Of a stretch of DNA of 64,000 nucleotides, positions 8,280 through 21,014 are shown piece by piece. Below the pieces are notes generated by a model. The model did not search any database and was not told the DNA's origin. It saw only the letters and a program-made list of their open reading frames with translations. The stretch is from Eubacteriales bacterium (GTDB lineage Bacteria > Bacillota > Clostridia > Oscillospirales > CAG-272). The stretch's first letter is position 1, and each line of letters begins with the position of its first letter. A program made the position numbers and the translations under genes. The stretch spans positions 6,774-70,773 of the forward strand of contig JAZRGA010000018.1 of assembly GCA_045643945.1 (NCBI GenBank). The letters run 5' to 3'.

Positions 8280-8308
8280 TTGAATTTGCTTTCAAAATAT
8301 GATATAAT
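8280..8308 (+). promoter_or_regulatory. Sigma-70-type promoter for the mdh-fumC-hdr-flx-frd operon
   Basis: TTGAAT (8280-8285), 17-nt spacer, TG-n-TATAAT (TATAAT at 8303-8308), ~120 nt upstream of the ATG at 8431. Confidence 0.55.
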
Positions 8309-8430
8309 ATAGTGAAAAATTTGTCATTTTTTTAACATAGTGCTTCAAGCCTTTACGCAAGACACTTATATAAATTGTTTTTTGAAATATTTTGTTATCC
8401 TAAAAAAATAAAATTCAGGAGAAAAATACT

Positions 8431-9372
8431 ATGCCAAAAAAGGTTACGATTATAGGCGCCGGCTCTGTCGGAGCAACGACGGCGTTTGCGCTTCTTACAC
8501 GCGGAGCCGCCTCTGAGGTGGTCTTAATAGACGTAAATAAGGACAAGGCTCTCGGCGAGGCGCTTGACATCAAGCAAGCAACCCCCTTTATCGACAACTG
8601 CGATATACGCGCAGGTGGATACGAGGATGCACGGGACTCAAATATAGTTATTATCACCTCGGGAATAGGACGAAAGCCCGGTCAAACAAGGCTTGACCTC
8701 GTTCAAACCAACGTGGACATAATAAAGCAGATAGCGCCCGAAATAGTAAAGGTTGCTCCGAACGCAATATACATACTTGTCGCAAACCCGGTGGATATTT
8801 TGACCTATGCATTTTTAAAGTACACGGGACTTCCGAAAAATCAGGTTTTCGGCACGGGAACAGCGCTCGATACCATTCGCTTGCGCACCCGTCTTTCGGA
8901 AATATACAAGGTAAATCAGCAGCAGGTGCACGCAAACGTACTCGGCGAGCATGGCGACACCTCGTTTGTGGCGTGGTCGACCGCAACAATTGCGGGAATT
9001 CCGCTCCCCGAATTTAACAACACCGTAGCGAAAAGAGCCGATTTTCAAAGCACTCTTGACGAGGTTGAGGGCTACGTCAGAAAATCGGGCGGAATAATTA
9101 TCGCTCAAAAGGGTTGTACAGTCTACGGAATAGGAATGACCTGCACTCATCTTGTAAAATCTCTTAGCGGCAGTGAAAAAACCGCTATCGCCATATCCTC
9201 GCTTCACGAGGGAGAGTACGGAATAAGCGACGTATGCTTAAGCTCTCTTTCCTTTATAGACCGAAGCGGAGTACATTCTATAATAACGCAAAGCCTCCCT
9301 CATTCCGAGCTTGAAAAGCTTCACAAATCGGCAAACGCGCTCAAAGAGGTTATTAAGGGCGTTAAATTTTAA
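8431..9372 (+). CDS. mdh: LDH-family 2-hydroxyacid dehydrogenase, predicted LDH-like malate dehydrogenase
   Basis: 313 aa. Rossmann motif KVTIIGAGSVGA and catalytic GEHGDT. The substrate loop ITSGIGRKPGQTRLDL has Arg where canonical LDH has Gln102 (GANQKPGETRLDL). The gene sits directly upstream of fumarase. Confidence 0.7.
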   Translation: MPKKVTIIGAGSVGATTAFALLTRGAASEVVLIDVNKDKALGEALDIKQATPFIDNCDIRAGGYEDARDSNIVIITSGIGRKPGQTRLDLVQTNVDIIKQIAPEIVKVAPNAIYILVANPVDILTYAFLKYTGLPKNQVFGTGTALDTIRLRTRLSEIYKVNQQQVHANVLGEHGDTSFVAWSTATIAGIPLPEFNNTVAKRADFQSTLDEVEGYVRKSGGIIIAQKGCTVYGIGMTCTHLVKSLSGSEKTAIAISSLHEGEYGISDVCLSSLSFIDRSGVHSIITQSLPHSELEKLHKSANALKEVIKGVKF

Positions 9373-9450
9373 AAGGTAAAAAATATTAATCTAAAATACA
9401 GAAAAGCAAGGAATATTCATCCTCGAATATTCAAGAAAGGACGAAAACAA

Positions 9451-10827
9451 ATGGAATACCGTATTGAACATGATTCTATGGGAGAAATGAAGGTCCCCGC
9501 AGACCGTCTTTGGGCGGCTCAAACACAAAGAAGTCACGAAAACTTTGAAATAGGCGTAGGTATTGAAACTATGCCATCCGAAATAATTCACGCATTCGGC
9601 GTACTCAAAAAGGCGGCTGCTATTACCAACAATAAGCTCCGTCCCGAGAAGATGACAAATGAAAAGCTTAGCGCTATCTCTGCGGCGTGCGACGAGGTTA
9701 TGGCAGGAAAATTAAACAGTCACTTCCCTCTCGTAGTATGGCAGACAGGCTCGGGAACACAATCGAATATGAACTCTAACGAGGTTATTGCAAACCGTGG
9801 AAATCAAATTCTCGGAAAGCAGCTTCTCCACCCCAACGACGACTCAAATATGAGCCAATCCTCTAACGACACCTTCCCTACTGCTATGCACATAGCGGCA
9901 GTTATAAGCCTTGAGGACAAGCTTATCCCCGCAGTAAAGGAGCTTATCGCAACCTTTATCCGACTTGAGGCCGAGAACGAGGGTATAGTCAAGAGCGGAA
10001 GAACACATCTTCAGGACGCAACCCCTATCAAATTCAGTCAGGAAATAAGCGGATGGCGCTCAAGCCTTGAGCGTGACGTTGAGCTTATCGAGCGCTCCAT
10101 TGAGCCGCTTCGTGAGCTTGCTCTCGGTGGAACTGCCGTAGGAACGGGACTTAACGCTCCCAAGGGCTTCGACGTTGGCGTTGCCGAGGAGGTATCCAAA
10201 ATAACGGGTAAGAAATTCATTACCGCATCAAACAAATTCCACGCGCTCACCTCAAAGGACGAGCTTGTATTTGCTCACGGTGCTATCAAGGCTCTTGCGT
10301 GCGATATGATGAAGATAGCAAACGACGTTCGTTGGCTTGCCTCAGGTCCTCGCGACGGTCTTGGAGAGATATTCATTCCCGAAAACGAGCCCGGCTCATC
10401 TATTATGCCAGGTAAGGTAAACCCCACTCAGTGTGAGGCGGTTACTATGGTTGCCGTTCAGGTTATGGGTAATGACGTTGCAGTCGCTATGGCGGCTTCT
10501 CAAGGAAACTTCGAGCTTAACGTATTTATGCCCGTATGCATCTACAACTTCCTTCAGTCGGCAAGACTTCTTGCAGAGGCTATCACGTCCTTTAACAAGA
10601 ATTGCGCAGTGGGAATAGTAGCAAACAGAGAAAAAATGCATCACAATCTTCATAATTCCCTTATGCTCGTCACCGCTCTCAACCCCTATATCGGCTATGA
10701 GAATGCGGCAAAAACCGCTAAGAAGGCATTCAAGGACAATATTTCTCTTAAAGAGGCTTGCATTGAGCTTGGCTTCTTAACGGCGGAAAAGTTTGACGAG
10801 GTATTCCACCCCGAGCAGATGGTATAA
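9451..10827 (+). CDS. fumC: Class II fumarate hydratase
   Basis: 458 aa with the signature GSSIMPGKVNPTQCEA and fumarase/aspartase family blocks (TGSGTQSNMN, GRTHLQDATP). Confidence 0.9.
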   Translation: MEYRIEHDSMGEMKVPADRLWAAQTQRSHENFEIGVGIETMPSEIIHAFGVLKKAAAITNNKLRPEKMTNEKLSAISAACDEVMAGKLNSHFPLVVWQTGSGTQSNMNSNEVIANRGNQILGKQLLHPNDDSNMSQSSNDTFPTAMHIAAVISLEDKLIPAVKELIATFIRLEAENEGIVKSGRTHLQDATPIKFSQEISGWRSSLERDVELIERSIEPLRELALGGTAVGTGLNAPKGFDVGVAEEVSKITGKKFITASNKFHALTSKDELVFAHGAIKALACDMMKIANDVRWLASGPRDGLGEIFIPENEPGSSIMPGKVNPTQCEAVTMVAVQVMGNDVAVAMAASQGNFELNVFMPVCIYNFLQSARLLAEAITSFNKNCAVGIVANREKMHHNLHNSLMLVTALNPYIGYENAAKTAKKAFKDNISLKEACIELGFLTAEKFDEVFHPEQMV

Positions 10828-10865
10828 GTCTGCGCTAAATTCCGAGGCAAATTGGAGGTAAATAA

Positions 10866-11657
10866 ATGAAGGTCAGTTATTTTCCCGGTTGCACACTAAA
10901 AAACAAGGCAAAGGATCTTGACGCATACGCACGCAGATCCGCAGAGGCCCTCGGTGTAACCTTAGAGGAAATCGAAGAATGGCAGTGCTGCGGCGGAGTC
11001 TTTACCACCGCAAATAACGAGGCGGCGACAAAGCTTTCCTCGGTTCGCGCGCTCAAATATGCGTACGAAAAAAATCAACCGCTTATAACGGTCTGCTCTG
11101 CCTGCCATAACGTCATAAAGCAAACCAATCACGAATTGCAGGTAAACAAAGCCTTTTGCAATAAGGTAAATCAATATATGGCGGAGGAAAACGAATATCA
11201 CGGTGAGGCCGAGGTATATCACTATCTCGAGATGCTCCGCGATATCGTTGGCTTTGACAAGGTAAAGGAATGTGTTAAAAACAGCCTCAAAGGTAAAAAA
11301 ATAGCGGCATACTACGGTTGTCTGCTCCTTCGTCCTAACAAGGTAATGCGTATGGACGATCCCGAAAACCCCACCGTTATCGAGGACTTAATACGCGCGC
11401 TTGGTGCAGAGGCGATAATATACGCAAGAAGAAACGAGTGCTGCGGAGCATACGTTTCACTTGAAGCTCCCGAAAGCGCAAAAAGAAACGCAAGCGCTAT
11501 TATTCAAAACGCAAAGGCGGCGGGAGCGGAAATGATTATAACCGCGTGCCCTCTTTGCAAATACAATCTTGAAAAATGCGGCGGAGATATTCCCGTTGTA
11601 TATTTTACCGAGATTTTAGCAGAGGCTCTCGGCGTAAAGGAGGATACCGATAATTAA
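10866..11657 (+). CDS. hdrB: Heterodisulfide reductase subunit B-like protein (two CCG domains)
   Basis: 263 aa. CCG motifs at WQCCGG and NECCGAY plus CPLCKYNL. Operon neighbour of HdrC and HdrA. Confidence 0.75.
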   Translation: MKVSYFPGCTLKNKAKDLDAYARRSAEALGVTLEEIEEWQCCGGVFTTANNEAATKLSSVRALKYAYEKNQPLITVCSACHNVIKQTNHELQVNKAFCNKVNQYMAEENEYHGEAEVYHYLEMLRDIVGFDKVKECVKNSLKGKKIAAYYGCLLLRPNKVMRMDDPENPTVIEDLIRALGAEAIIYARRNECCGAYVSLEAPESAKRNASAIIQNAKAAGAEMIITACPLCKYNLEKCGGDIPVVYFTEILAEALGVKEDTDN

Positions 11658-11659
11658 CG

Positions 11660-12049
11660 ATGGAAAACAATAAGTATCTTCGAGAAGAAATTTTAAGAAT
11701 GAGCGGCGTTGACACAAGCAAATGTATGAAGTGCGGAAAATGCTCGGCTACCTGCCCTGCTTACGATGAAATGGAGTATCACCCCCATCAGTTCGTATCT
11801 ATGGTTCAGGAGGGAGATATCGAGCCGCTTATAAAATCCGAATCACTCTATAAGTGCTTATCCTGCTTCGCTTGCATCGACAGATGCCCTCGCGGAGTCG
11901 AGCCTGCAAAGGTGGTTGAGGCGGTGCGTCTTACTGCGGTAAGAAAGCAGGGCGCAAACCGTATGACACCTAACGACGTACCCGCAAGGCTTGATGCGGA
12001 TACGCCTCAGCAGCTTCTTGTAAGCGCTTTTAGAAAATATACTAAGTAA
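11660..12049 (+). CDS. hdrC: Heterodisulfide reductase subunit C-like 2x[4Fe-4S] protein
   Basis: 129 aa with CMKCGKCSATCP and CLSCFACIDRCP. There is a 2-nt gap to the upstream hdrB-like gene. Confidence 0.75.
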   Translation: MENNKYLREEILRMSGVDTSKCMKCGKCSATCPAYDEMEYHPHQFVSMVQEGDIEPLIKSESLYKCLSCFACIDRCPRGVEPAKVVEAVRLTAVRKQGANRMTPNDVPARLDADTPQQLLVSAFRKYTK

Positions 12050-12063
12050 AGGAGGAAGGACAT

Positions 12064-14058
12064 ATGCAAAGAGTTGGAGTTTTTGTATGCTGGTGCGGAA
12101 GTAACATCGCAGGAACGGTTGACGTTGTAGCGGTATCCGAAGCGCTAAAAAATGAACCAGGCGTAGTCTTTTCCGCCAATTATCAATATATGTGCTCTCA
12201 GGCAGGTCAGGATATGATAAAGGATGCCGTAAAGGAGCATAATCTTACAGGAATAGTAGTTTGCTCATGCTCACCGAGAATGCACGAGGCTACCTTCCGT
12301 AAAACCGCAGCCGCGGCAGGTCTTAATCCTTATATGGTCGAAATCGCAAACATCCGCGAGCAATGCTCTTGGGTACATAAGGATATAGCATCGGGAACCG
12401 AAAAGGCTATAATCCTCGGTAAAGCGGCTATTGCAAAGGTTAACCTTAACGCACCGCTCACACCGGGTGAATCCCCCGTAACCAAGCGCGCGCTCGTTAT
12501 CGGAGGAGGTATTGCGGGAATTCAAACTGCCCTCGATATTGCCGATGCGGGATTTGAGGTAGATATAGTTGAGAAGCAGCCCACAATAGGCGGTAAAATG
12601 GCTCAGCTTGACAAAACATTCCCAACGCTCGACTGTGCGGCGTGTATTCTTACGCCTAAAATGGTTGACGTTGCTCAAAATGAAAAAATACGTATTTTCT
12701 CCTACAGTGAGGTTACCGACGTACACGGCTTTGTAGGTAATTTCGACGTAACGATAAAGAAAAAGGCGAGATACGTTAAAGAGGATATCTGCACGGGATG
12801 CGGCGCTTGCGTTGAAAAGTGCCCCATGAAAAAAGTCCCCAACGAGTTCAATCTTGGAATGGACAACCGACGCGCAGTCTATATTCCCTTTGCGCAAGCA
12901 GTCCCCAAGGTTGCAACGATAGACCCTAACGCCTGCAATATGCTTAAGAACGGCAAATGCGGTCTTTGCGCAAAAATCTGTACTGCGGGCGCTATCGACT
13001 ACACTCAAAAGGATGAAATAATCAAAGAAAAATACGGCGCTATCGTCGTTGCCACAGGATTTAATCCTATCAGTATGGAAAAATTCGACGAATTTGCCTA
13101 CAATCAGTCAAAGGACGTTATCACCTCGCTTGAGTTCGAGCGCCTTACCAATGCGGCAGGCCCATCTGCGGGAAAGCTTGTACGTCCGTCAGACGGAAAG
13201 CATCCTCACACGATAGTTTTCGTTCAGTGCGTCGGCTCACGTTGTGAGTCCTGCGCAGAAAAGGGTAAGGAATACTGCTCAAAGATATGCTGTATGTATA
13301 CCGCTAAGCACGCAATGCTTACAAGAGATAAATATCCCGATACCGAGGTTTACGTCTTCTACATTGACGTAAGAACACCCGGAAAGAACTTTGACGAGTT
13401 CTACCGTCGCGCAGTCGAGGAATACGGCGTTAAATACGTCAAGGGTATGGTAGGAAAAATAGTTCCCGAGGGCGACAAGCTCAAGGTTCAGGCATCCGAC
13501 CTTTTATCTAACAAGCAGCTTCACATTGACGCCGACCTTGTGGTTTTGGCTACGGCTATCGAGCCCGACAAATCGGCTCGCTCGCTTGCTACTATGCTTA
13601 CCGCAAGTATGGATACAAACGATTTCTTTACCGAGGCGCATCCAAAGCTTCGACCCGTTGAAAGCCCGACCGCGGGAGTATTTCTCTCGGGCGCTTGCCA
13701 AGGTCCTAAGGATATCCCCGAAACGGTATCTCAGGCGGGTGCGGCAGCATCTAAGGTTATCGGACTTCTTTCAAAGAACAAGCTTACGGGTAACCCCTGC
13801 GTTGCAAGCTCCGACGAGCTTATGTGCAACGGCTGCTCAAGCTGTGAGCGAGTTTGTCCTTACGGTGCTATAACCTATATCGAAAAGGAATTCCGTATGC
13901 CCGACAGAACAACAAAAATAAGACGTGTCGCTTCGGTAAACCCTGCGGTATGTCAGGGATGCGGAGCGTGTACCGTTGCTTGCCCCTCGGGCGCTATGGA
14001 CCTTTTGGGATTTAAAAACAATCAAATTATGGCGGAGGTTGATGCAATATGCAAGTAA
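12064..14058 (+). CDS. hdrA: Heterodisulfide reductase subunit A-like FAD/Fe-S flavoprotein
   Basis: 664 aa. FAD motif VIGGGIAGIQTALDIADAG, TFPTLDCAACILTPKM, and several ferredoxin-type Cys clusters (CTGCGACVEKCP, CNGCSSCERVCP, CQGCGACTVACP). Confidence 0.85.
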   Translation: MQRVGVFVCWCGSNIAGTVDVVAVSEALKNEPGVVFSANYQYMCSQAGQDMIKDAVKEHNLTGIVVCSCSPRMHEATFRKTAAAAGLNPYMVEIANIREQCSWVHKDIASGTEKAIILGKAAIAKVNLNAPLTPGESPVTKRALVIGGGIAGIQTALDIADAGFEVDIVEKQPTIGGKMAQLDKTFPTLDCAACILTPKMVDVAQNEKIRIFSYSEVTDVHGFVGNFDVTIKKKARYVKEDICTGCGACVEKCPMKKVPNEFNLGMDNRRAVYIPFAQAVPKVATIDPNACNMLKNGKCGLCAKICTAGAIDYTQKDEIIKEKYGAIVVATGFNPISMEKFDEFAYNQSKDVITSLEFERLTNAAGPSAGKLVRPSDGKHPHTIVFVQCVGSRCESCAEKGKEYCSKICCMYTAKHAMLTRDKYPDTEVYVFYIDVRTPGKNFDEFYRRAVEEYGVKYVKGMVGKIVPEGDKLKVQASDLLSNKQLHIDADLVVLATAIEPDKSARSLATMLTASMDTNDFFTEAHPKLRPVESPTAGVFLSGACQGPKDIPETVSQAGAAASKVIGLLSKNKLTGNPCVASSDELMCNGCSSCERVCPYGAITYIEKEFRMPDRTTKIRRVASVNPAVCQGCGACTVACPSGAMDLLGFKNNQIMAEVDAICK

Positions 14059-14483
14059 ATGAATATAAGCCCTTAATAGTTGCCTTTTGCTGCAACTGGT
14101 GCTCATATGCGGGCGCTGACCTTGCGGGAAACAACCGTCTTGCATATCCCGCCGACGTAAAAATTATAAAAGTTCCCTGCTCATGCAGAGTTAACCCCAC
14201 GTTTATTCTCCGCGCGTTTCAAAGAGGCGCTGACGGAGTTATAATCTGTGGATGTCACCCCGGCGACTGTCACTATACCTCGGGTAATTACTATACCCGT
14301 CGCCGTATGGCAACTCTTTTCTCTATGCTCGATTTTCTCGGTATTGAAAAGGAGCGCACCCGTGTTGAATGGGTATCTGCCGCAGAGGGAGCAAAGTTTG
14401 CCGCAACTATGAACGATTTCGTTGCAACGGTTACGGCACTTGGAGAAAACAAGAGATTGGAGGACTTAAGATGCAAAAAATAA
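14049..14483 (+). CDS. mvhD: MvhD/FlxD-like [2Fe-2S] protein (methyl-viologen-reducing hydrogenase delta subunit family)
   Basis: 144 aa with FCCNWCSYAGADLAG, VPCSCRVNP and ICGCHPGDCHY. Overlaps the hdrA stop by 10 nt. Confidence 0.8.
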   Translation: MQVNEYKPLIVAFCCNWCSYAGADLAGNNRLAYPADVKIIKVPCSCRVNPTFILRAFQRGADGVIICGCHPGDCHYTSGNYYTRRRMATLFSMLDFLGIEKERTRVEWVSAAEGAKFAATMNDFVATVTALGENKRLEDLRCKK

Positions 14484-15469: not shown

Positions 15470-16490
15470 ATGCTCTCTTGATAAAATTCAAAGCCTTTTT
15501 GCCGAAATAGCTAAAGGCGCAAGACTTTATATGCCCGTCGACAACGCCGATAAAAGCGCATCCTACGCAGAATGGAGCGAGGGTGTTGAATGGTCGAGGG
15601 CACTTAACACAACGAAAAGTCCCAAGGATTTCTTCTTTCCTCAAACCGAGGATTTAATGAGATTTAAAACCGAGGGAAAGAGCATCGAGGTAATTGATAT
15701 ACGCCGTGAGCTTGAGGATTTCGTTATATTCGGAGTCCGTGCCTGCGACGTAAAAAGCTTTGATATTCTTGATAAGGTTTTCCTCTCCGAGCCACGCGAC
15801 AGCTTTTATGCTATGAAGCGTGAAAAAGGAATAATAGTTTCACTCGCTTGCTCAAGACCTGCCGAAACCTGCTTTTGCTCTACGTTCGGAATTGATGCGG
15901 CAGACCCCGCGGGCGACGTTACCGCTTGGAGATGCGAGGATGCTATTTATCTTCGCGCCAACACAGATAAGGGTGAAGCTCTCCTTTCACGTCTTAGCGG
16001 CATTCTCGAGGAATGTGACGATAGCGCAGTAAATGCCGAGAAGGAAAAAATCGCAAAAATAATGAATAAGCTTCCCTTAAAGGACCTTTCCACAGACTCC
16101 TTTGGTGGAGGCAAAACGATGGAAATTTTTGACGACCCCGCTTGGGAGGAGCTTTCAACGGCTTGTCTTGGCTGCGGAACGTGTACCTTTGTTTGCCCAA
16201 CCTGCCAGTGCTATGATATAAAGGATTTTAACACAGGCAACGGCGTTATACGTTACAGATGCTGGGATTCGTGTATGTATTCCGAATTTACAAAAATGGC
16301 TCACGGAAACAACAGACTCACGCAAAAGGAGCGATTCCGTCAAAGATTTATGCATAAGCTTGTATATTTCCCCGAAAACAACGACGGACTCTTCAGCTGC
16401 GTCGGTTGCGGAAGATGCCTTACAAAATGTCCTATTTCTATGAATATAGTTAAGGTAATGAAGAAAATAGGAGGAAATAAAGATGAATGA
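15462..16490 (+). CDS. Fe-S subunit, FlxB/AsrA-like (anaerobic sulfite reductase subunit A / sulfhydrogenase beta family)
   Basis: Start moved to the ATG at 15462 (MLKCSLDK), preceded by AGGAGG, overlapping the upstream stop by 8 nt. Motifs: GVRACD, CLGCGTCTFVCPTCQC and CVGCGRCLTKCP. Confidence 0.65.
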   Translation: MLKCSLDKIQSLFAEIAKGARLYMPVDNADKSASYAEWSEGVEWSRALNTTKSPKDFFFPQTEDLMRFKTEGKSIEVIDIRRELEDFVIFGVRACDVKSFDILDKVFLSEPRDSFYAMKREKGIIVSLACSRPAETCFCSTFGIDAADPAGDVTAWRCEDAIYLRANTDKGEALLSRLSGILEECDDSAVNAEKEKIAKIMNKLPLKDLSTDSFGGGKTMEIFDDPAWEELSTACLGCGTCTFVCPTCQCYDIKDFNTGNGVIRYRCWDSCMYSEFTKMAHGNNRLTQKERFRQRFMHKLVYFPENNDGLFSCVGCGRCLTKCPISMNIVKVMKKIGGNKDE

Positions 16491-17343
16491 TATAAATAAT
16501 TTTAATGATATAAATATTGCAAACGATACTTTAATTCCTTTGGTTGGCGTCATTACCGACGTAAGAATTGACACTCCCGACATAAAGACCTTCCGCGTTG
16601 TAACCGTAGACGGTAAAAAGGCATTCGACCACCGTCCCGGACAGTGCGCTATGCTCTCTATTCCCGGTGTTGGCGAGGCTATGTTTTCTATAACCTCATC
16701 GCCTACAAACACCGAGTATATGGAGTTTGCAATTAAAAAATGCGGATGCGTTACCGATTGGCTTCACCAAGCCGAGGTAGGTCAACAGATTACAATACGC
16801 GGTCCTTACGGAAAGCCCTTTCCCGTAGACGACGTGTTCGCAGGAAAAAATCTTCTGTTTATAGCAGGCGGTGTCGGACTTGCTCCGCTTCGTTCGGTTA
16901 TAAACTACTGCCGCCACTATCGCGAGCGCTACGGTGATATCGATATAGTTTACGGCTCACGCAGTAAGGAGGACCTGCTTGATTACCGTGAAATTATTGA
17001 GGAATGGTCGACCGACGCAGGCGTTAACGTCCATCTTACGATAGACAATCCGCAAGAGGATTGGAACGGTCACGTCGGCTTTGTTCCCAACTATGTAAAG
17101 GAGCTTGGATTTGACACCGACAAAACCGCTATAATCTGCGGTCCTCCAATTATGATAAAATTCACACTTGAGGGACTTGTTGACCTCGGATTTGACAAAA
17201 CGCAGGTTTATACAACGCTCGAGCTTAGAATGAAGTGCGGAGTCGGTAAATGCGGCAGATGCAACGTAGGCGCTAAATACGTCTGCAAGGACGGACCCGT
17301 GTTCAGATGTGACGAGCTTGAAGAGCTTCCGAGCGAATATTAA
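16483..17343 (+). CDS. FAD/NAD(P)H-binding oxidoreductase with C-terminal [2Fe-2S], FlxA/AsrB/PyrK-like
   Basis: 286 aa. Ferredoxin-NADP reductase-type fold (RPGQCAML, FSITSSP, LLFIAGGVGLAPL) and C-terminal CGVGKCGRCNVG. Overlaps the upstream gene by 8 nt. Confidence 0.75.
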   Translation: MNDINNFNDINIANDTLIPLVGVITDVRIDTPDIKTFRVVTVDGKKAFDHRPGQCAMLSIPGVGEAMFSITSSPTNTEYMEFAIKKCGCVTDWLHQAEVGQQITIRGPYGKPFPVDDVFAGKNLLFIAGGVGLAPLRSVINYCRHYRERYGDIDIVYGSRSKEDLLDYREIIEEWSTDAGVNVHLTIDNPQEDWNGHVGFVPNYVKELGFDTDKTAIICGPPIMIKFTLEGLVDLGFDKTQVYTTLELRMKCGVGKCGRCNVGAKYVCKDGPVFRCDELEELPSEY

Positions 17344-17360
17344 AGGAGAAAAGAAAACAA

Positions 17361-18035
17361 ATGGAAAAAACGGTAAATATATTTCTTTTCGGTAAAAAAT
17401 ACGCAGTACCCGAAAATCTTACTATTATGACCGCTATGGAATATGCAGGCTATCAGCTCGTTCGCGGATGCGGCTGCAGAAACGGCTTTTGCGGTGCTTG
17501 CGCTACGATTTATCGAATAAAGGGTGACAAGGAGCTTCACGCCTGCCTTGCGTGTCAAACCAAGGTTGAGGACAATATGTATATCGCTACCTTGCCCTTC
17601 TTCCCTCTCGTTAAAGAGGTTTATAATATTAACGAAATTCCCGTAAACGAAACCGTTATGATGCAGCTTTACCCCGAGGTTTACGCATGTATCGGATGCA
17701 ACGCCTGCACAAAGGCTTGCACACAGGGACTCAACGTAATGCAATACATAGCATACGCTCAGCGCGGAGATTTTGAAAAATGTGCCGAGGAGTCCTTTGA
17801 CTGCGTTATGTGCGGAGTTTGCTCGTCAAGATGCCCTGCGGGTATTTCACATCCTCAGGTTGCTATGCTTGCAAGAAGAATAAACGGAAAATATCTCGCT
17901 CCGGGATGCGGTCACCTTGAGGACCGTGTTAAAGAAATAGAAAGCGGTGATTTTAATGAGCTTATAGAAGCTCTTATGCAAAAGCCCATCGACGAGATGA
18001 AAGAGCTTTACAACAACCGTGATATAGAAAAATAA
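17361..18035 (+). CDS. Succinate dehydrogenase/fumarate reductase iron-sulfur subunit-like protein
   Basis: 224 aa. N-terminal plant-type [2Fe-2S] pattern CGCRNGFCGACA..C, followed by CIGCNACTKAC and CVMCGVCSSRCP. Confidence 0.7.
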   Translation: MEKTVNIFLFGKKYAVPENLTIMTAMEYAGYQLVRGCGCRNGFCGACATIYRIKGDKELHACLACQTKVEDNMYIATLPFFPLVKEVYNINEIPVNETVMMQLYPEVYACIGCNACTKACTQGLNVMQYIAYAQRGDFEKCAEESFDCVMCGVCSSRCPAGISHPQVAMLARRINGKYLAPGCGHLEDRVKEIESGDFNELIEALMQKPIDEMKELYNNRDIEK

Positions 18036-18048
18036 GGAGGACGCATAA

Positions 18049-19647
18049 ATGTATTCTGAACAGTTTAAGGCTTCACTTGCGCTTGTTGAAGCGGCAAGAG
18101 AAAAGAATATTGCTCTTGAGCCTACCCGAATGACGGCAGAGCAAAAGGAAACAGTGCTTGCGTCATTCCACCCCGACTACAAGGTTGACGAGTTTACTAC
18201 TCTTTCAATAGGCGCAAACAAGGGCGACAAGGTTCCAAAGGAGCTTGCCGAAATTCTTCAGGCTCATAGCCGTATAAACGCAGATAGCGTTGACCTCAGC
18301 GCTCCCGATTACGAAACCGACGTTCTCGTTATCGGAGGAGGCGGAGCGGGTGCTTCTGCGGCAATCGAGGCTCACGAGGCAGGTGCAAGTGTAACCGTTG
18401 TAACCAAGCTCCGTATGGGCGACGCAAATACGATGATGGCAGAGGGCGGAATTCAAGCGGCAGATAAGCCCAACGATTCCCCTGCAATCCACTTTATAGA
18501 CGCATTCGGAGGCGGTCACTTTGCCGCAAAGCGCGAGCTTCTCTCAAAGCTTGTATGCGATGCTCCCGAGGCGATAAAATGGCTCTCCGAGCTTGGCGTT
18601 GAATTTGACAAGGAGCCTGACGGCACTATGGTAACCACCCACGGAGGCGGTACGTCACGCAAGCGTATGCACGCCGCTAAGGACTATTCGGGCGCAGAAA
18701 TTATGCGCACGCTTCGTGATGAGGTATTAAATCGCAATATTCCCGTAATAGACTTTACCGCCGCTATCGAGCTTATACTCGACGAAAACGGTAATGCGGC
18801 AGGCGCGGTGCTTATGAATATGGAAACTAAAGAGCTTCTCGTTGCAAAGGCAAAAACGGTAATCATCGCAACGGGCGGAGCGGGTAGAATGCACTATCAG
18901 GGCTTCCCCACCTCCAACCACTACGGAGCAACCGCAGACGGACTCGTTCTCGGCTACCGCGCGGGCGCAAAGCTTCTTTATGCAGAAACACTTCAATATC
19001 ACCCCACGGGCGTTGCATTCCCCGAGCAGATATTCGGAGCGCTTGTAACCGAAAAGGTGCGCTCTCTCGGAGCAAAGCTCGTTAACAAAAACGGAGAGGT
19101 GTTTATGCATCCTCTCGAAACCCGTGACGTTACCGCAGCATCTATTATCCGTGAGTGCAACGAGCGTGATAACGGAATCGATTGCGGAAACGGCAAGGGC
19201 GTTTGGCTCGATACGCCTATGATAGAAAAAATAGGCGGCGAGGGTACTATTATGAAACGTATTCCCGCTATGTGGAGAATGTTCGATAAGTACGGAATTG
19301 ACATAAGACGTGAGCCTATTCTCGTTTACCCAACGCTTCACTATCAAAACGGCGGTCTTGACATTACCGACGACTGTATGACTACAAACGTAAAGAATTT
19401 ATTCGTTGCGGGCGAAGCGGTTGGCGGAATACACGGCAAGAACAGACTTATGGGTAACTCGCTTCTCGATATTATCGTATTCGGCAGAAGCGCAGGAAAG
19501 AATGCGGCGGCAAAAGCAAAGGAAACCACCGTTGGAAAGCTTAGCCTTGCGCACGTTGCAAGCTTTGAAGCAGAAATCAAGGCGGCGGGAATTACCACCG
19601 ACGTAGTTTCTCCCAAGCTTCTCCCCGACTATACTCGAAGGGTCTAA
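18049..19647 (+). CDS. Fumarate reductase/succinate dehydrogenase-family flavoprotein subunit, soluble type
   Basis: 532 aa with DVLVIGGGGAGASAAIEA, LQYHPTG, HYQNGG and RLMGNSLLDIIVFGRSAG. No His at the covalent-FAD position (GDANTMMAEGG). No membrane-anchor gene is adjacent. Confidence 0.75.
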   Translation: MYSEQFKASLALVEAAREKNIALEPTRMTAEQKETVLASFHPDYKVDEFTTLSIGANKGDKVPKELAEILQAHSRINADSVDLSAPDYETDVLVIGGGGAGASAAIEAHEAGASVTVVTKLRMGDANTMMAEGGIQAADKPNDSPAIHFIDAFGGGHFAAKRELLSKLVCDAPEAIKWLSELGVEFDKEPDGTMVTTHGGGTSRKRMHAAKDYSGAEIMRTLRDEVLNRNIPVIDFTAAIELILDENGNAAGAVLMNMETKELLVAKAKTVIIATGGAGRMHYQGFPTSNHYGATADGLVLGYRAGAKLLYAETLQYHPTGVAFPEQIFGALVTEKVRSLGAKLVNKNGEVFMHPLETRDVTAASIIRECNERDNGIDCGNGKGVWLDTPMIEKIGGEGTIMKRIPAMWRMFDKYGIDIRREPILVYPTLHYQNGGLDITDDCMTTNVKNLFVAGEAVGGIHGKNRLMGNSLLDIIVFGRSAGKNAAAKAKETTVGKLSLAHVASFEAEIKAAGITTDVVSPKLLPDYTRRV

Positions 19648-19662
19648 GAAAGGACATTATCT

Positions 19663-20925
19663 ATGCAATTATTTGGCGGACTTATCTCTATTAGCAATAT
19701 ATCAACACTTCTTCTCGTTATTTTCTCGGTTTTACTCGCAGGATATGCGCTTGGAAGAATAACTGTAAAAGGCATTTCACTTGGCGATGCAGGCGTATTT
19801 ATAGTAGCGCTTTTGTGCGGAGCATTATTCTTTGGAGTAAACGAAAGCGGCGCTCTTGTATTTGACGCATCGACAAAGCCTTACGATTTTTCGTCAGGAC
19901 TCTCAATAATCGAAAGCCTCGGACTTATCTTGTTCGTAACCTCTGTCGGATTTATCGCAGGACCGAAGTTTTTCGGCAATTTTAAGAGAAACTTTAAGTC
20001 CTACGTTTTGCTCGGAGTTATAATTATACTTGCGGGCGGACTTGCGGCTGTCGGATGCATCTATCTTGGTGAGCTTATAGGTTACGGCTCAACGATTACC
20101 GACCAAGACGGCTTTGTAGCGATGATAGTAGGCTTGCTTTCGGGCTCGCTTACCTCAACTCCTGCATTCTCTGCGGCAAAGGCTACCGTCGACCCGCAAT
20201 ATACGGGACTCGTTTCGGTTGGACACGGAATTGGTTACATCTTCGGTGTTATCGGAGTTGTTCTTTTCGTTCAAATCATTCCCAAGCTTTCAAAGGCTAA
20301 TATGGAGGAGGAAAGAGCAAAGCTTACCGTAGCGGCAACAGAAGAAAAGAAAGAATACAAGGGCAAGCTTTTCCACATCGACCATATGGGAATAGCAGGC
20401 TTCTCTCTTGCGGCTGTGCTTGGCGCATTTATCGGACAGATAAAAATACCGCTTTCGGCAGACGGCTTTAGCGGCACTTGCTTTTCCCTTACAACCACGG
20501 GCGGATGCTTGCTTGTAAGCTTAATTCTTGGACATTTCGGACGCTTTGGACGTGTTAGCATTATGCCAACGCAAAGCACGCTTAAGCTTTTCCGTGAGCT
20601 TGGACTCGTTCTCTTTCTCGTAGGAGCGGGAATTCCCGGAGGCGCAGAGTTTGTTGCAAACTTCGACCCGATGTACTTCGTTTACGGAATTTTAATGACC
20701 ATCGTTCCCTTGATAGTCGGATTTATCTTTGCGAAATACGTTCTTAAGCTCAGTCTTCTCAACAACCTCGGCTCTATTACAGGTGGTATGACAAGTACAC
20801 CCGCTCTCGGAACGCTAATTTCCACCGCAGGAACAGAGGACGTAGCGGCGTCATATGCGGCAACCTACCCCGTAGCGCTCATCGCAGTAGTTCTCGTTTC
20901 ACAGTTTATAGTAATTTTACTATAA
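19663..20925 (+). CDS. AAE-family (AspT/YidE/YbjL/SucE-like) transporter, short form; candidate dicarboxylate (succinate) exporter
   Basis: 420 aa. Two polytopic membrane halves joined by a short charged linker (KANMEEERAKLTVAATEEKKEYKG). Glycine-rich motifs GSLTSTPA and GGMTSTPALG are repeated in each half. Last gene of the operon. Confidence 0.55.
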   Translation: MQLFGGLISISNISTLLLVIFSVLLAGYALGRITVKGISLGDAGVFIVALLCGALFFGVNESGALVFDASTKPYDFSSGLSIIESLGLILFVTSVGFIAGPKFFGNFKRNFKSYVLLGVIIILAGGLAAVGCIYLGELIGYGSTITDQDGFVAMIVGLLSGSLTSTPAFSAAKATVDPQYTGLVSVGHGIGYIFGVIGVVLFVQIIPKLSKANMEEERAKLTVAATEEKKEYKGKLFHIDHMGIAGFSLAAVLGAFIGQIKIPLSADGFSGTCFSLTTTGGCLLVSLILGHFGRFGRVSIMPTQSTLKLFRELGLVLFLVGAGIPGGAEFVANFDPMYFVYGILMTIVPLIVGFIFAKYVLKLSLLNNLGSITGGMTSTPALGTLISTAGTEDVAASYAATYPVALIAVVLVSQFIVILL

Positions 20926-20956: not shown

Positions 20957-21000
20957 AACCGCTTTATTATCATTTTTCGGTGATAGTAAAGCGGTTTTTT
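20957..21000. terminator. Bidirectional rho-independent terminator between convergent genes
   Basis: AACCGCTTTATTATCA / TGATAGTAAAGCGGTT stem (one mismatch), flanked by an A-run upstream and a T-run downstream. Confidence 0.75.
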
Positions 21001-21014
21001 ATTATTTATTTTAT

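What the first reader, a model, noticed from the sequence alone, without database searches (positions are those of the whole stretch)
8280..20925. mdh-fumC-hdrBCA-mvhD-flxCBA-like-frdBA-like-transporter operon: candidate soluble, flavin-based electron-bifurcating NADH:fumarate reductase pathway
Twelve genes with 2-40 nt gaps or 8-13 nt overlaps encode a complete reductive route from oxaloacetate to succinate: LDH-like MDH, class II fumarase and an FrdA/FrdB-like pair. A full HdrABC-MvhD set and FlxA/B/C-like subunits sit in the middle (FAD/NADH-binding AsrB-like, AsrA-like, and a 2x[4Fe-4S] protein).

Two things are established. FlxABCD-HdrABC is a proposed NADH-dependent bifurcating module in Desulfovibrio and other anaerobes. 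In methanogens, fumarate reduction is tied to Hdr-type CCG domains (TfrB).

Here the two ideas are physically merged, and there is no membrane anchor for the fumarate reductase. The inference is as follows. Exergonic fumarate reduction (E0' about +30 mV) with NADH could drive ferredoxin reduction, analogous to Bcd-Etf or Mvh-Hdr. The final AAE-family transporter could then export succinate. I am not aware of a characterised enzyme with this composition.
Basis: partly seen in the sequence, partly recalled or inferred. Interest (0 to 1): 0.8.

Follow-up and report, generated by a model that had tools for sequence, protein, structure and literature searches.

The report
Hdr-Flx-coupled soluble fumarate reductase operon
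A gut or rumen Clostridia bacterium carries one operon for turning oxaloacetate into succinate, in which a membrane-free fumarate reductase is wired to an NADH-oxidising, probably electron-bifurcating Hdr-Flx module; this design has been proposed in the literature but never proven biochemically.

Summary
Twelve co-directional genes (8431-20925) lie between a promoter-like site (8280) and a strong terminator (20957). In order they are:
- an LDH-family malate dehydrogenase (Arg at the specificity position)
- class II fumarase
- HdrB, HdrC, HdrA and MvhD
- three Flx-like NAD(P)H/Fe-S proteins
- a 2Fe-2S/2x[4Fe-4S] protein
- a truncated FrdA/TfrA-like flavoprotein
- an AAE-family transporter

The flavoprotein keeps every fumarate-binding and catalytic residue. 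It lacks the covalent-FAD histidine and the L-aspartate-oxidase glutamate. None of the eleven enzymes has a predicted membrane helix.

The nine-gene core hdrBCA-mvhD-flxCBA-frdBA is colinear in 54 of 55 species-level genomes that have enough flank. These include Ruminococcus flavefaciens MAGs and the isolate Yeguia hominis.

The idea is not new. The same "succinate operon" was described in Pseudoclostridium thermosuccinogenes (2019 preprint, cited in a 2020 paper). A tfrAB-flx-hdr-kor cluster was described in tubeworm symbionts (2019, 2024). A 2026 survey still calls the bifurcating complex "suggested".

Verdict: a new member of a known, proposed but uncharacterised kind. Bifurcation to ferredoxin is plausible but untested.

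The parts
8280..8308 (+). sigma-70-like promoter (TTGAAT, 17 nt, TATAAT, TG-extended -10)
   Evidence: It lies in the 335-nt AT-rich gap after the divergent gene that ends at 8095. This is a consensus match only.
8431..9372 (+). LDH-family malate dehydrogenase (313 aa)
   Evidence: Pfam Ldh_1_N and Ldh_1_C. NCBIfam L-LDH models score above their cut-offs, while the MDH subfamily scores 276.8 against a cut-off of 283. The substrate-discriminating position has Arg: GIGRKPG, where Enterococcus LDH 3wsv has GVNQKPG. Arg is kept in 42 of 43 upstream homologues in related loci.
9451..10827 (+). class II fumarate hydratase FumC (458 aa)
   Evidence: TIGR00979 scores 711 bits, above its cut-off of 664.75. 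Lyase_1 and FumaraseC_C domains are present. The gene is upstream of hdrB in 50 of 53 related loci.
10866..11657 (+). HdrB-like subunit with two CCG domains (263 aa)
   Evidence: PF02754 matches twice. The protein aligns at full length to methanogen HdrB 8rvv_B (E 8e-37). Both C...CC...CxxC motifs are intact. It also matches positions 262-486 of the TfrB profile.
11660..12049 (+). HdrC-like 2x[4Fe-4S] subunit (129 aa)
   Evidence: Fer4_8/17 domains. It matches the HdrC models TIGR03290 and NF041779 below their cut-offs. It matches TfrB profile positions 132-220.
12064..14058 (+). HdrA flavoprotein, the presumed bifurcating FAD site (664 aa)
   Evidence: NF040770 HdrA2 scores 781 bits over positions 1-641. 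phmmer gives 697 bits to 5odc_A, residues 3-661 against 5-648.
14049..14483 (+). MvhD/FlxD [2Fe-2S] connector (144 aa)
   Evidence: PF02662 FlpD, E 6.5e-55. It overlaps hdrA by 10 nt.
14471..15469 (+). FlxC-like Fe-S protein (332 aa)
   Evidence: Fer4_8/9 domains. Its C-terminal part resembles FdhB of the Fdh-Hdr complexes 7bkb_E and 8rvu_E, E about 1e-20. The start codon is shared with relatives.
15462..16490 (+). FlxB-like AsrA/HydB-type Fe-S protein (342 aa)
   Evidence: Fer4_22. Sulfhydrogenase beta models score 183-188 bits. PDB 9nez_B matches at E 8e-54.
16483..17343 (+). FlxA-like NAD(P)H-binding flavoprotein with [2Fe-2S] (286 aa)
   Evidence: FAD_binding_6, NAD_binding_1 and DHODB_Fe-S_bind domains. 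It resembles AsrB and HydG.
17361..18035 (+). FrdB/TfrB-N-like iron-sulfur subunit: [2Fe-2S] plus two CxxCxxCxxxC motifs (224 aa)
   Evidence: Fer2_4/Fer2_3 plus Fer4_9. It matches TfrB profile positions 19-148 and has weak SdhB matches. It is always immediately upstream of the flavoprotein. In P0122 the two are naturally fused.
18049..19647 (+). FrdA/TfrA-like flavoprotein, the fumarate-reducing subunit (532 aa)
   Evidence: FAD_binding_2 only, with no Succ_DH_flav_C domain. The best NCBIfam match is TfrA, 345 bits against a cut-off of 718. H318, E335, R338, R359, H431 and R466 are invariant. Asn127 replaces the FAD-linking His. Gly stands at the position of NadB Glu121. The AF2 model has pLDDT 85.8, and its best fold match is E. 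coli FrdA 1kf6_A.
19663..20925 (+). AAE-family (Asp-Al_Ex) transporter, candidate succinate exporter or C4-dicarboxylate exchanger (420 aa)
   Evidence: PF06826 matches twice. TIGR01625 scores 117.8 bits, above its cut-off of 71.95. About ten hydrophobic segments. It sits immediately downstream of frdA in 43 of 63 related loci.
20957..21006 (+). intrinsic-terminator-like hairpin (18 pairs) followed by a T-run

Best explanation
The operon encodes the reductive branch oxaloacetate -> malate -> fumarate -> succinate, plus a product transporter. Its fumarate reductase is a soluble, quinone-independent multi-subunit enzyme.

Proposed electron path (inferred, not shown):
1. NAD(P)H is oxidised at FlxA (FAD, 2Fe-2S).
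2. Electrons pass through the Fe-S proteins FlxB and FlxC, then MvhD, to the FAD of HdrA.
3. At HdrA each electron pair is split.
4. The high-potential electron goes through HdrC and HdrB to the FrdB-like clusters and on to the non-covalently bound FAD of the FrdA-like subunit, which reduces fumarate.
5. The low-potential electron leaves through the ferredoxin-like domains of HdrA to ferredoxin.

Net reaction: 2 NADH + fumarate + 2 Fd(ox) -> 2 NAD+ + succinate + 2 Fd(red). This is about -49 kJ/mol at E0' values of -320, +33 and -420 mV. The reduced ferredoxin can then be spent on H2 formation or on Rnf-type ion pumping.

What is shown here: the gene identities, the cofactor motifs, a fumarate-type active site, the absence of an anchor, and the conserved gene linkage.

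What is inferred: that the eleven proteins assemble physically, that the donor is NADH rather than NADPH, and that ferredoxin is reduced.
For: 1. All pathway parts are present and tightly packed, with overlaps of 8-13 nt from hdrA through flxA.

2. The flavoprotein has the complete Frd/Sdh dicarboxylate site. H318, R359, H431, R466, E335 and R338 are invariant in the family. Its best structural match is E. coli FrdA.

3. Asn replaces the covalent-FAD histidine in every family member. From established knowledge, this is the pattern of soluble enzymes that only reduce fumarate.

4. HdrA is a full-length, close homologue of the structurally characterised bifurcating HdrA (697 bits to 5odc_A). HdrB keeps both CCG cluster motifs.

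5. hdrBCA-mvhD-flxCBA-frdBA is colinear in 54 of 55 species genomes. fumC is upstream in 50 of 53. An Arg102-type MDH gene is upstream in 41 of 53.

6. A gene-fusion (Rosetta-stone) argument supports Fe-S/CCG/flavin connectivity. The methanogen TfrB profile (488 positions) is covered colinearly by three separate proteins here: FrdB-like (19-148), HdrC-like (132-220) and HdrB-like (262-486). So this connectivity already exists within one polypeptide elsewhere.

7. The operon has only one HdrB and no second CCG protein. A free thiol/disulfide shuttle between two separate enzymes is therefore unparsimonious (inference).

8. The Hdr-Frd linkage recurs in a distant lineage with 55% identity, next to 2-oxoacid:ferredoxin oxidoreductase genes (L082).

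9. In one close relative, a group B monomeric [FeFe]-hydrogenase sits in the same operon (L001). A 2025 study ties this group to fermentative H2 production coupled to PFOR (PMC12578642). This fits a ferredoxin output.

10. Independent literature reaches the same model. The homologous P. thermosuccinogenes 'succinate operon' is up-regulated about 4-fold as a unit under CO2 limitation, although not significantly for every subunit. H2 addition abolishes succinate formation there (PMC7282089). The Endoriftia rTCA/Hdr-Flx gene cluster behaves like a co-expressed operon, but the authors except tfrAB from the shared pattern (PMC11636981).
Against: - No biochemical data exist for any member. A 2026 survey still says 'suggested'.
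- More distant FrdAB-like pairs have no Hdr or Flx neighbours. These are L085 and L087, at 46-58% identity, and L022, a close relative. L083 is instead followed by a NuoF-like gene. The reductase module is therefore portable and does not intrinsically need Hdr.
- The characterised soluble NADH-dependent fumarate reductase of Hydrogenobacter thermophilus (Miura 2008, from my own knowledge; the paper is not held) is not reported to need ferredoxin. Not every soluble NADH-linked fumarate reductase bifurcates.
- NADH versus NADPH cannot be read from the FlxA sequence.
- No ferredoxin, Rnf or hydrogenase gene lies in this operon or in this 64-kb window.
- Subunit contacts were not modelled.
Confidence: 0.55

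Rival explanations
1. A non-bifurcating soluble NAD(P)H:fumarate reductase. The Hdr and Flx proteins act only as an electron wire from NAD(P)H to FrdAB. All electrons end on fumarate, and no ferredoxin is reduced. This would be analogous to the five-subunit NADH-dependent fumarate reductase (EC 1.3.1.6) of Hydrogenobacter thermophilus.
For: - NADH-to-fumarate electron transfer is exergonic on its own.
- Family members are found with a simple NuoF-like partner (L083/L084) or with no partner at all. FrdAB therefore accepts electrons from varied donors.
- A characterised soluble NADH-dependent enzyme exists (cited in PMC13147460).
Against: - Carrying a full-length canonical HdrA, with all its Fe-S domains (697 bits to 5odc_A), plus MvhD merely as a wire is hard to rationalise.
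- These genes are strictly conserved in 54 of 55 genomes.
- From my own knowledge, every HdrA-containing complex characterised so far is bifurcating or confurcating.
Confidence: 0.2
2. Two separate enzymes share one operon. Flx-Hdr bifurcates NADH electrons to ferredoxin and to a disulfide, either a DsrC-like protein or a low-molecular-weight disulfide. The resulting thiol, or the reduced ferredoxin, then feeds a free-standing FrdAB.
For: - FlxABCD-HdrABC was proposed to act on a DsrC-type disulfide in Desulfovibrio (Ramos 2015, as cited).
- Stand-alone FrdAB pairs exist.
Against: - The FrdB-like subunit has no CCG domain, and CCG is the thiol-oxidising site in methanogen TfrB.
- The operon has a single HdrB and no DsrC-like or thioredoxin-like gene.
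- Feeding fumarate reduction with the reduced ferredoxin that was just made would waste the energy gained.
Confidence: 0.12
3. The flavoprotein does not reduce fumarate. It could be an L-aspartate oxidase, an AprA-like enzyme, or a urocanate or other enoate reductase. In that case the operon serves another acceptor.
For: - NCBIfam NadB models score nearly as high as SdhA/FrdA models (278 against 283 bits).
- No family-specific cut-off is reached.
- The C-terminal Sdh/Frd domain is missing.
Against: - The Glu121 position of NadB is Gly here, and Gly, Ala or Ser across the subfamily members that carry the N-terminal extension. The reference sequence was verified against 1chu_A.
- The best NCBIfam match is TfrA, and the best fold match is E. 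coli FrdA.
- fumC lies directly upstream in 50 of 53 genomes, and an Arg102 MDH in 41 of 53.
- No nadA or nadC genes are adjacent.
- AprA-type proteins do not appear among the matches.
Confidence: 0.05
4. The complex runs in the oxidative or confurcating direction, that is, succinate oxidation coupled to ferredoxin oxidation and NAD+ reduction.
For: Hdr-type complexes are reversible in principle.
Against: - FAD is non-covalent (Asn at the His site). From established knowledge of Sdh/Frd, this disfavours succinate oxidation.
- The neighbouring genes are MDH, fumarase and an exporter-family transporter.
- The hosts are fermentative gut Clostridia, including labelled R. flavefaciens, a classical succinate producer (the physiology is from my own knowledge).
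Confidence: 0.03

Closest known systems
'Succinate operon' of Pseudoclostridium (Clostridium) thermosuccinogenes, CDQ83_RS03365-03315. Sources: Koendjbiharie & van Kranenburg 2019 preprint; Koendjbiharie et al. 2020, PMC7282089.
   Same: - Same gene content and order as described in the paper: fumarate hydratase, seven Flx-Hdr genes, two fumarate reductase genes, then a putative succinate transporter.
- Same hypothesis: fumarate reduction coupled to ferredoxin reduction.
- Same class (Clostridia) and the same kind of physiology (succinate fermentation).
   Different: - The window adds an Arg102-type MDH gene as the first gene.
- The host is a mesophilic gut or rumen Oscillospiraceae-like lineage.
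- Sequence-level homology to the P. thermosuccinogenes proteins could not be checked here, because that genome was not among the 80 loci returned.
tfrAB-flxABCD-hdrABC-korABCD rTCA gene cluster of Ca. Endoriftia persephone and Thioflavicoccus mobilis. Sources: Rubin-Blum 2019, PMC6315080; Mitchell 2024, PMC11636981.
   Same: - A two-subunit Tfr-like fumarate reductase is interleaved with Hdr-Flx genes.
- It is proposed to form an electron-bifurcating complex that reduces fumarate and ferredoxin.
- Locus L082 (55% identical flavoprotein) shows this kor-hdr-frd arrangement.
   Different: - There it is part of autotrophic CO2 fixation in Gammaproteobacteria, with 2-oxoglutarate:ferredoxin oxidoreductase as the ferredoxin consumer.
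- Here it sits in a fermentative Clostridia operon with mdh, fumC and an exporter, and no kor genes.
FlxABCD-HdrABC of Desulfovibrio vulgaris (Ramos et al. 2015)
   Same: The same seven protein types are present: FlxA (FAD, NAD and 2Fe-2S domains), two Fe-S proteins, an MvhD-like FlxD, and HdrA, HdrB and HdrC.
   Different: - The gene order is reversed (hdrBCA-flxDCBA).
- The proposed high-potential acceptor there is a DsrC-type disulfide. Here an FrdAB pair is attached.
- That system is itself supported by genetics rather than by a purified enzyme (my own knowledge).
Thiol:fumarate reductase TfrAB of Methanothermobacter (Heim et al. 1998)
   Same: - TfrA is the best NCBIfam match of the flavoprotein.
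- The TfrB profile is covered colinearly by FrdB-like, HdrC-like and HdrB-like proteins.
- It is soluble and independent of quinone.
   Different: - The TfrA score is far below the equivalog cut-off (345 against 718 bits), and the C-terminal domain of about 120 residues is missing.
- TfrB is split into three proteins here.
- The donor in methanogens is CoM-SH plus CoB-SH, which bacteria lack.
- HdrA, MvhD and Flx are additions.
MvhAGD-HdrABC and Fdh-Hdr complexes of methanogens (PDB 5odc, 7bkb, 8rvu)
   Same: HdrA, HdrB, HdrC and MvhD are close, full-length homologues. This is the paradigm for bifurcation at the HdrA FAD.
   Different: - The donor module is a Flx-type NAD(P)H dehydrogenase, not a hydrogenase or formate dehydrogenase.
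- The acceptor is fumarate via FrdAB, not the CoM-S-S-CoB heterodisulfide.
Soluble five-subunit NADH-dependent fumarate reductase of Hydrogenobacter thermophilus (Miura et al. 2008; EC 1.3.1.6)
   Same: It is a soluble, NADH-linked, multi-subunit fumarate reductase with no membrane anchor. It is the only biochemically characterised enzyme of this general sort (cited).
   Different: As far as I recall, it has no HdrA or MvhD and shows no ferredoxin dependence. The paper is not held, so the subunits were not compared here.
Membrane quinol:fumarate reductase FrdABCD/FrdCAB (E. coli, Wolinella)
   Same: - The flavoprotein fold and the catalytic residues are the same. The best Foldseek hit is 1kf6_A, TM-score 0.70.
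- The Fe-S subunit begins with a 2Fe-2S domain.
   Different: - There is no membrane anchor and no quinone site.
- There is no covalent FAD.
- A third CxxCxxCxxxC-type motif predicts a [4Fe-4S] cluster where classical FrdB has a [3Fe-4S].
- The flavoprotein lacks the C-terminal domain and has an N-terminal extension of 88 residues.

Membership tests
Sdh/Frd/NadB flavoprotein superfamily, fumarate-reducing type | FAD_binding_2 domain with an N-terminal GxGxxG dinucleotide fold | tested here: met
   PF00890, E 9.6e-70 over residues 91-472. The motif VIGGGGAG is present.
Sdh/Frd/NadB flavoprotein superfamily, fumarate-reducing type | Dicarboxylate-binding and catalytic residues: His (HPTG), the proton-shuttle Arg, a second His and a second Arg, equivalent to E. 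coli SdhA H242, R286, H354 and R399 | tested here: met
   H318, R359, H431 and R466 align to these residues in 1nek_A. They are invariant in 14 family sequences.
Sdh/Frd/NadB flavoprotein superfamily, fumarate-reducing type | Histidine for the covalent 8-alpha-FAD link, typical of membrane Sdh/Frd | tested here: not met
   Asn127 aligns with SdhA His45. Asn is found in all subfamily members. This matches soluble, reduction-only enzymes.
Sdh/Frd/NadB flavoprotein superfamily, fumarate-reducing type | C-terminal helical domain (Succ_DH_flav_C) | tested here: not met
   There is no PF02910 hit. Matches to the TfrA, SdhA and NadB models stop at about profile position 425.
L-aspartate oxidase (NadB) | Conserved Glu121 (E. 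coli numbering) that binds the substrate amino group | tested here: not met
   Gly in the window protein. Gly, Ala or Ser in subfamily members with the N-terminal extension (Cys in P0162), and Phe in classical Sdh-like sequences. The NadB reference was verified as 1chu_A.
L-aspartate oxidase (NadB) | Score above the NCBIfam nadB cut-off | tested here: not met
   TIGR00551 scores 278 bits against a cut-off of 452.75.
Thiol:fumarate reductase TfrAB | TfrA equivalog score | tested here: not met
   NF004900 is the best hit but scores 345 bits against a cut-off of 718. Only profile positions 6-425 of 546 are matched.
Thiol:fumarate reductase TfrAB | TfrB: one polypeptide carrying 2Fe-2S, 4Fe-4S clusters and two CCG domains | tested here: not met
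   It is split here. FrdB-like covers profile positions 19-148, HdrC-like covers 132-220, and HdrB-like covers 262-486 of NF004898.
Thiol:fumarate reductase TfrAB | CoM-SH/CoB-SH as electron donor | not testable with these tools
   This needs an enzyme assay. Bacteria of this class are not known to make these coenzymes (my own knowledge).
HdrABC-MvhD | HdrB with two CCG motifs (Cx31-39CCx35-36CxxC) for the non-cubane [4Fe-4S] clusters | tested here: met
   C9...C41C42...C77xxC80 and C152...C192C193...C227xxC230. PF02754 matches twice. The protein aligns at full length to 8rvv_B.
HdrABC-MvhD | Full-length HdrA with its FAD domain and ferredoxin-like domains | tested here: met
   697 bits; residues 3-661 align to 5-648 of 5odc_A. 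The NCBIfam equivalog cut-offs are not reached. This is partly expected for the HdrA2 model, which includes a fused MvhD part (positions 643-774) that is a separate protein here.
HdrABC-MvhD | MvhD/FlpD domain protein adjacent to HdrA | tested here: met
   PF02662, E 6.5e-55. The gene overlaps hdrA by 10 nt.
HdrABC-MvhD | Heterodisulfide reduction activity | not testable with these tools
   This needs biochemistry.
FlxABCD-HdrABC | FlxA with FAD, NAD(P) and 2Fe-2S domains, two Fe-S proteins and an MvhD-like FlxD, encoded next to hdrABC | tested here: met
   All seven genes are contiguous, and the arrangement is conserved in 54 of 55 genomes.
FlxABCD-HdrABC | NADH oxidation coupled to reduction of ferredoxin and of a high-potential acceptor | not testable with these tools
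It has also not been shown with a purified enzyme for any Flx-Hdr, to my knowledge.
LDH-like malate dehydrogenase | Arg at LDH position 102 (Gln in lactate dehydrogenases) | tested here: met
   GIGRKPG here against GVNQKPG in LDH 3wsv. Arg is found in 42 of 43 syntenic homologues.
LDH-like malate dehydrogenase | NCBIfam MDH model score above its cut-off | tested here: inconclusive
   NF004863 MDH scores 276.8 bits, just below its cut-off of 283. The L-LDH models NF000824 and TIGR01771 score above their cut-offs. Overall similarity says LDH clade; the specificity residue says MDH.
Class II fumarate hydratase | TIGR00979 equivalog score, with Lyase_1 and FumaraseC_C domains | tested here: met
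   711 bits against a cut-off of 664.75.
AAE (aspartate:alanine exchanger) transporter family | Two Asp-Al_Ex membrane repeats | tested here: met
   PF06826 matches in two stretches. TIGR01625 scores 117.8 bits against a cut-off of 71.95. At 420 aa it is shorter than the 553- to 562-position AspT/YidE/YbjL models, which it matches only at its two ends. No TrkA_C or other central domain was detected.
AAE (aspartate:alanine exchanger) transporter family | Succinate export | not testable with these tools
   The family includes a succinate exporter (abstract of PMC9527358). The substrate of this protein is inferred only from its operon context.
Flavin-based electron-bifurcating enzymes | Obligate coupling of an exergonic and an endergonic reduction from one two-electron donor | not testable with these tools
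   It is thermodynamically feasible, at about -49 kJ per mol fumarate. The E0' of fumarate, +33 mV, is quoted in PMC5861303. An anaerobic enzyme assay is needed.

The most novel reading that the evidence does not exclude
The complex is a genuine flavin-based electron-bifurcating NADH:fumarate/ferredoxin oxidoreductase. That would be a new acceptor class for HdrA-based bifurcation. It would also be the main route to succinate in quinone-less gut and rumen Oscillospiraceae and Ruminococcus, including R. flavefaciens.

In that case succinate fermentation in these organisms would yield extra reduced ferredoxin. That ferredoxin would be spent on H2 (a group B [FeFe]-hydrogenase sits in the operon of one relative) or on ion pumping. 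This would alter the accepted energy and hydrogen budgets of rumen and colon fermentation.
Probability: 0.5. Interest if true: 0.7.

Novelty: new member of a known kind. Interest (0 to 1): 0.5.

Why it matters
If the proposed mechanism is right, fumarate joins crotonyl-CoA, heterodisulfide and a few other high-potential acceptors that drive ferredoxin reduction from NADH. It would explain how Clostridia that are not known to make menaquinone or cytochromes (my own knowledge) produce succinate and still conserve energy.

This survey shows the operon is common. At least 80 species-level genomes were returned, and the scan stopped at 600 matches. The hosts are gut and rumen Clostridia of humans, yak, sheep, goat, deer and buffalo. 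They include MAGs labelled Ruminococcus flavefaciens and the cultured isolate Yeguia hominis NSJ-40.

That has two consequences:
- It gives mesophilic hosts, at least one of them cultured, in which to test a hypothesis that has stood untested since 2019.
- It bears on hydrogen and methane balances in ruminants.

The finding itself does not add a new concept.

Tried and rejected
- L-aspartate oxidase identity was rejected. The Glu121 position is Gly, the NadB cut-off is not reached, and there is no nadA/nadC context.
- An AprA-like identity was rejected. No such match appears among the NCBIfam or PDB hits.
- A hidden membrane anchor was sought and not found. The hydrophobicity scan shows no transmembrane segment in the eleven enzymes. 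The marginal HdrA segment 6-25 is its Cys-rich N-terminal strand.
- A solved structure of a bacterial Flx-Hdr or Hdr-Frd complex was sought by sequence in the PDB. None was found; only methanogen Hdr complexes and P. furiosus sulfhydrogenase match.
- A biochemical characterisation was sought in five literature searches. None is in the held library. The Miura 2008 paper could not be read.
- Sequence comparison with the P. thermosuccinogenes operon was not possible. The single genome-collection scan returned only the 80 closest loci, all at least 72% identical.
Only the flavoprotein monomer was modelled.
- The rest of the window was checked for ferredoxin, Rnf, PEP carboxykinase or other pathway genes. 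Only housekeeping and surface-protein genes were seen among the large ORFs tested.

Full report
**1. What is in the sequence**

Between a divergent GDSL-lipase gene (4742-8095, minus strand) and a convergent TIR-TPR gene (21015-23738, minus strand) lie twelve plus-strand ORFs from 8431 to 20925. A hairpin of 18 pairs followed by a T-run lies at 20957-21006.

Gene spacings are +78, +38, +2, +14, -10, -13, -8, -8, +17, +13 and +15 nt. The unit looks like one operon.

**2. Identities of the proteins**

Pfam and NCBIfam give:
- an LDH/MDH-family dehydrogenase
- class II fumarase (TIGR00979, 711 bits, above its cut-off)
- an HdrB-like protein with two CCG domains
- an HdrC-like dicluster protein
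- HdrA
- MvhD (FlpD)
- an Fe-S protein whose C-terminus resembles FdhB of Fdh-Hdr complexes
- an AsrA/HydB-like Fer4_22 protein (E 8e-54 to sulfhydrogenase beta 9nez_B)
- an AsrB/HydG-like protein with FAD, NAD and 2Fe-2S domains
- a 224-aa protein with a 2Fe-2S domain and two CxxCxxCxxxC motifs
- a 532-aa FAD_binding_2 flavoprotein
- an Asp-Al_Ex (AAE-family) transporter

HdrA aligns at full length with the crystallised bifurcating HdrA (697 bits to 5odc_A). HdrB aligns at full length with methanogen HdrB and keeps both cysteine motifs. A Kyte-Doolittle scan finds no membrane segment in the eleven enzymes and about ten in the transporter.

**3. The three identities the interpretation depends on**

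*The dehydrogenase.* By overall similarity it scores as L-LDH. The MDH subfamily model scores 276.8 bits against a cut-off of 283. However, it has Arg where lactate dehydrogenases have Gln102: GIGRKPG against GVNQKPG in 3wsv. That Arg is present in 42 of 43 homologues found at the same operon position in relatives. From established knowledge (the Gln102Arg specificity switch), this marks an oxaloacetate-reducing enzyme.

*The flavoprotein.*
- It aligns with E. coli SdhA such that H318, R359, H431 and R466 match H242, R286, H354 and R399. These residues, with E335 and R338, are invariant in the family.
- The histidine that carries covalent FAD is replaced by Asn in every subfamily member.
- The Glu121 that defines L-aspartate oxidases is Gly here. 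I verified my NadB reference sequence as PDB 1chu_A before aligning it.
- The best NCBIfam match is methanogen TfrA, far below its cut-off (345 against 718 bits). The C-terminal Sdh/Frd domain is missing, and an 88-residue N-terminal extension is present.
- An AlphaFold2 model (pLDDT 85.8) matches E. coli FrdA best (1kf6_A, TM-score 0.70).

*The Fe-S subunit.* It is a distant SdhB/FrdB/TfrB relative. It always sits directly upstream of the flavoprotein. In one natural protein (P0122, 727 aa) the two are fused.

**4. Conservation**

A scan of one genome per species with a subfamily alignment hit the 600-match limit. It returned the 80 best loci, with flavoprotein identity of 72-89%.

Nearly all are MAGs labelled Clostridia, Oscillospiraceae, Acutalibacteraceae or Ruminococcus, apart from a few bins carrying other labels (Bacteroides, Bacteroidaceae, Treponema). 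They come from human, yak, sheep, goat, deer, buffalo and horse gut. They include two MAGs labelled R. flavefaciens and the RefSeq records for Yeguia hominis NSJ-40 and Ca. Avoscillospira sp..

tblastn mapping of the twelve window proteins gives these counts:

| Feature | Loci with it | Loci with enough flank |
|---|---|---|
| hdrB-hdrC-hdrA-mvhD-flxC-flxB-flxA-frdB-frdA colinear | 54 | 55 |
| fumC upstream | 50 | 53 |
| MDH gene upstream | 41 | 53 |
| AAE transporter immediately downstream | 43 | 63 |

The single exception, L022, has frdBA alone.

**5. More distant family members vary in their partners**

- A 55%-identical member sits in korDABC-like - hdrA - mvhD - hdrC - hdrB - frdB - frdA (L082).
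- A 47%-identical member, in a cytochrome-c-rich proteobacterial context, is followed by a NuoF-like NADH-binding subunit (L083/L084).
- Others stand alone or are fused (L085, L087).

So FrdAB-like is a portable soluble reductase module. Hdr is one recurrent partner, found in two very different lineages, but not an obligatory one.

A close relative (L001, 91% identity) carries a group B monomeric [FeFe]-hydrogenase where the window has fumC (TIGR04105, 572 bits, H-cluster motifs present).

**6. Most likely mechanism**

The TfrB profile of methanogen thiol:fumarate reductase is covered colinearly by three separate proteins of this operon: FrdB-like (19-148), HdrC-like (132-220) and HdrB-like (262-486). 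FrdA, FrdB, HdrC and HdrB therefore amount to a split Tfr-type core. In that core, Fe-S clusters connect CCG domains to the fumarate-reducing flavin.

To this core are added HdrA and MvhD, the bifurcating flavoprotein and its connector, and a Flx-type NAD(P)H dehydrogenase.

The operon has only one CCG protein and no DsrC-like or thiol-carrier gene. I therefore infer direct electron transfer rather than a free thiol/disulfide shuttle:
- NAD(P)H -> FlxA -> FlxB/FlxC -> MvhD -> HdrA-FAD
- one electron -> HdrC/HdrB -> FrdB -> FrdA-FAD -> fumarate
- the other electron -> ferredoxin

With E0' values of -320, +33 (quoted in PMC5861303) and -420 mV, the reaction 2 NADH + fumarate + 2 Fd(ox) is exergonic by about 49 kJ/mol. 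Physical assembly, the donor nucleotide and ferredoxin reduction are inferred, not shown.

**7. Comparison with what is known**

The idea is already in print.
- Koendjbiharie et al. 2020 (PMC7282089) describe a 'succinate operon' in Pseudoclostridium thermosuccinogenes. It has fumarate hydratase, a seven-gene Flx-Hdr complex, a two-gene fumarate reductase and a putative succinate transporter. [quoted passage not shown] They report that the operon is up-regulated about 4-fold under CO2 limitation, not significantly for every subunit, and that H2 suppresses succinate formation.
- Rubin-Blum et al. 2019 (PMC6315080) and Mitchell et al. 2024 (PMC11636981) describe tfrAB interleaved with flxABCD-hdrABC and korABCD in tubeworm symbionts and Thioflavicoccus. 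They propose the same kind of complex. Mitchell et al. find the cluster co-expressed, except tfrAB.
- A 2026 genome survey still words this as 'it has been suggested' (PMC13147460).
- My searches found no biochemical characterisation and no solved structure of such a complex.

The window is thus a new member of a known, proposed but uncharacterised kind. What is possibly incremental is the MDH gene in the operon. The wide distribution in mesophilic gut and rumen Oscillospiraceae, including R. flavefaciens, may also be new. I did not find either mentioned in the held literature, but I could not read the 2019 preprint.

**8. Rivals**

- A non-bifurcating NADH:fumarate reductase (0.2). It is compatible with the NuoF-linked and stand-alone relatives and with the Hydrogenobacter enzyme. 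It is hard to square with a strictly conserved canonical HdrA.
- Two separate enzymes linked by a thiol carrier (0.12). It is disfavoured by the single CCG protein and the absence of a carrier gene.
- Another substrate for the flavoprotein (0.05). It is disfavoured by the active-site residues and by the fumC/mdh linkage.
- The oxidative direction (0.03). It is disfavoured by non-covalent FAD and by the host physiology.

**9. Verdict**

Gene content, soluble fumarate reductase and conserved coupling to Hdr-Flx are supported. Bifurcation is untested. The novelty is overstated.
- Interest is moderate (0.5). Specialists already hold this hypothesis, but the locus family offers abundant, partly cultured hosts in which to test it.

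Noticed in passing
L001:1312-2739 (ENA ERZ28633523 scaffold_3): In a close relative (flavoprotein 91% identical), a group B monomeric [FeFe]-hydrogenase gene sits between mdh and hdrB, where the window has fumC. It scores 572 bits on TIGR04105, above the cut-off, and has the H-cluster motifs TSSCCP, GPCTAKK and MACVGGC. This is a circumstantial hint that the complex produces reduced ferredoxin.
   Followed up: partly
L022:9247-11605 (Congzhengia sp. MAG): This is the only one of 55 loci in which frdB-frdA stand alone. The 9 kb upstream carries pyrimidine-biosynthesis-like and other genes, with no hdr or flx. Whether hdr-flx lies elsewhere in that genome is unknown.
   Followed up: partly
P0122 / L085:5250-7433: A natural fusion of the FrdB-like Fe-S protein and the FrdA-like flavoprotein in one 727-aa polypeptide. 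No hdr or flx genes lie on the 7.7-kb contig.
   Followed up: partly
L083 and L084: 9366-12891: A 47%-identical FrdB-FrdA pair is followed by a NuoF-like gene (Complex1_51K plus NADH_4Fe-4S). The context has GC of 53% and is rich in cytochrome c. This may be a simple soluble NADH:fumarate reductase without Hdr.
   Followed up: no
L082:811-9771: Four-subunit 2-oxoacid:ferredoxin oxidoreductase genes lie directly upstream of hdrA-mvhD-hdrC-hdrB-frdB-frdA. This is the rTCA-type arrangement described for tubeworm symbionts. No flx genes are on the 10-kb contig.
   Followed up: partly
window 21015-23738 (- strand): A 907-aa protein with a TIR_2 domain and many TPR repeats lies convergent to the operon end. 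It may be a defence or signalling protein.
   Followed up: no
window 2714-4705 and 4742-8095 (- strand): Two large proteins in tandem (663 and 1117 aa) carry GDSL lipase/acylhydrolase domains.
   Followed up: no
window 29132-31804 (+) and 40588-45984 (-): BspA-type leucine-rich-repeat proteins of 890 and 1798 aa. The ORFs at 32936-35989 (1017 aa) and 51950-53485 (511 aa) have no Pfam match. The ORF at 50309-51907 carries DUF2357.
   Followed up: no
window 17361-18035: The FrdB-like subunit has two complete CxxCxxCxxxC motifs. It is therefore predicted to carry a [4Fe-4S] cluster where classical FrdB/SdhB has a [3Fe-4S], as in methanogen TfrB and type E enzymes (the comparison is from my own knowledge).
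   Followed up: no
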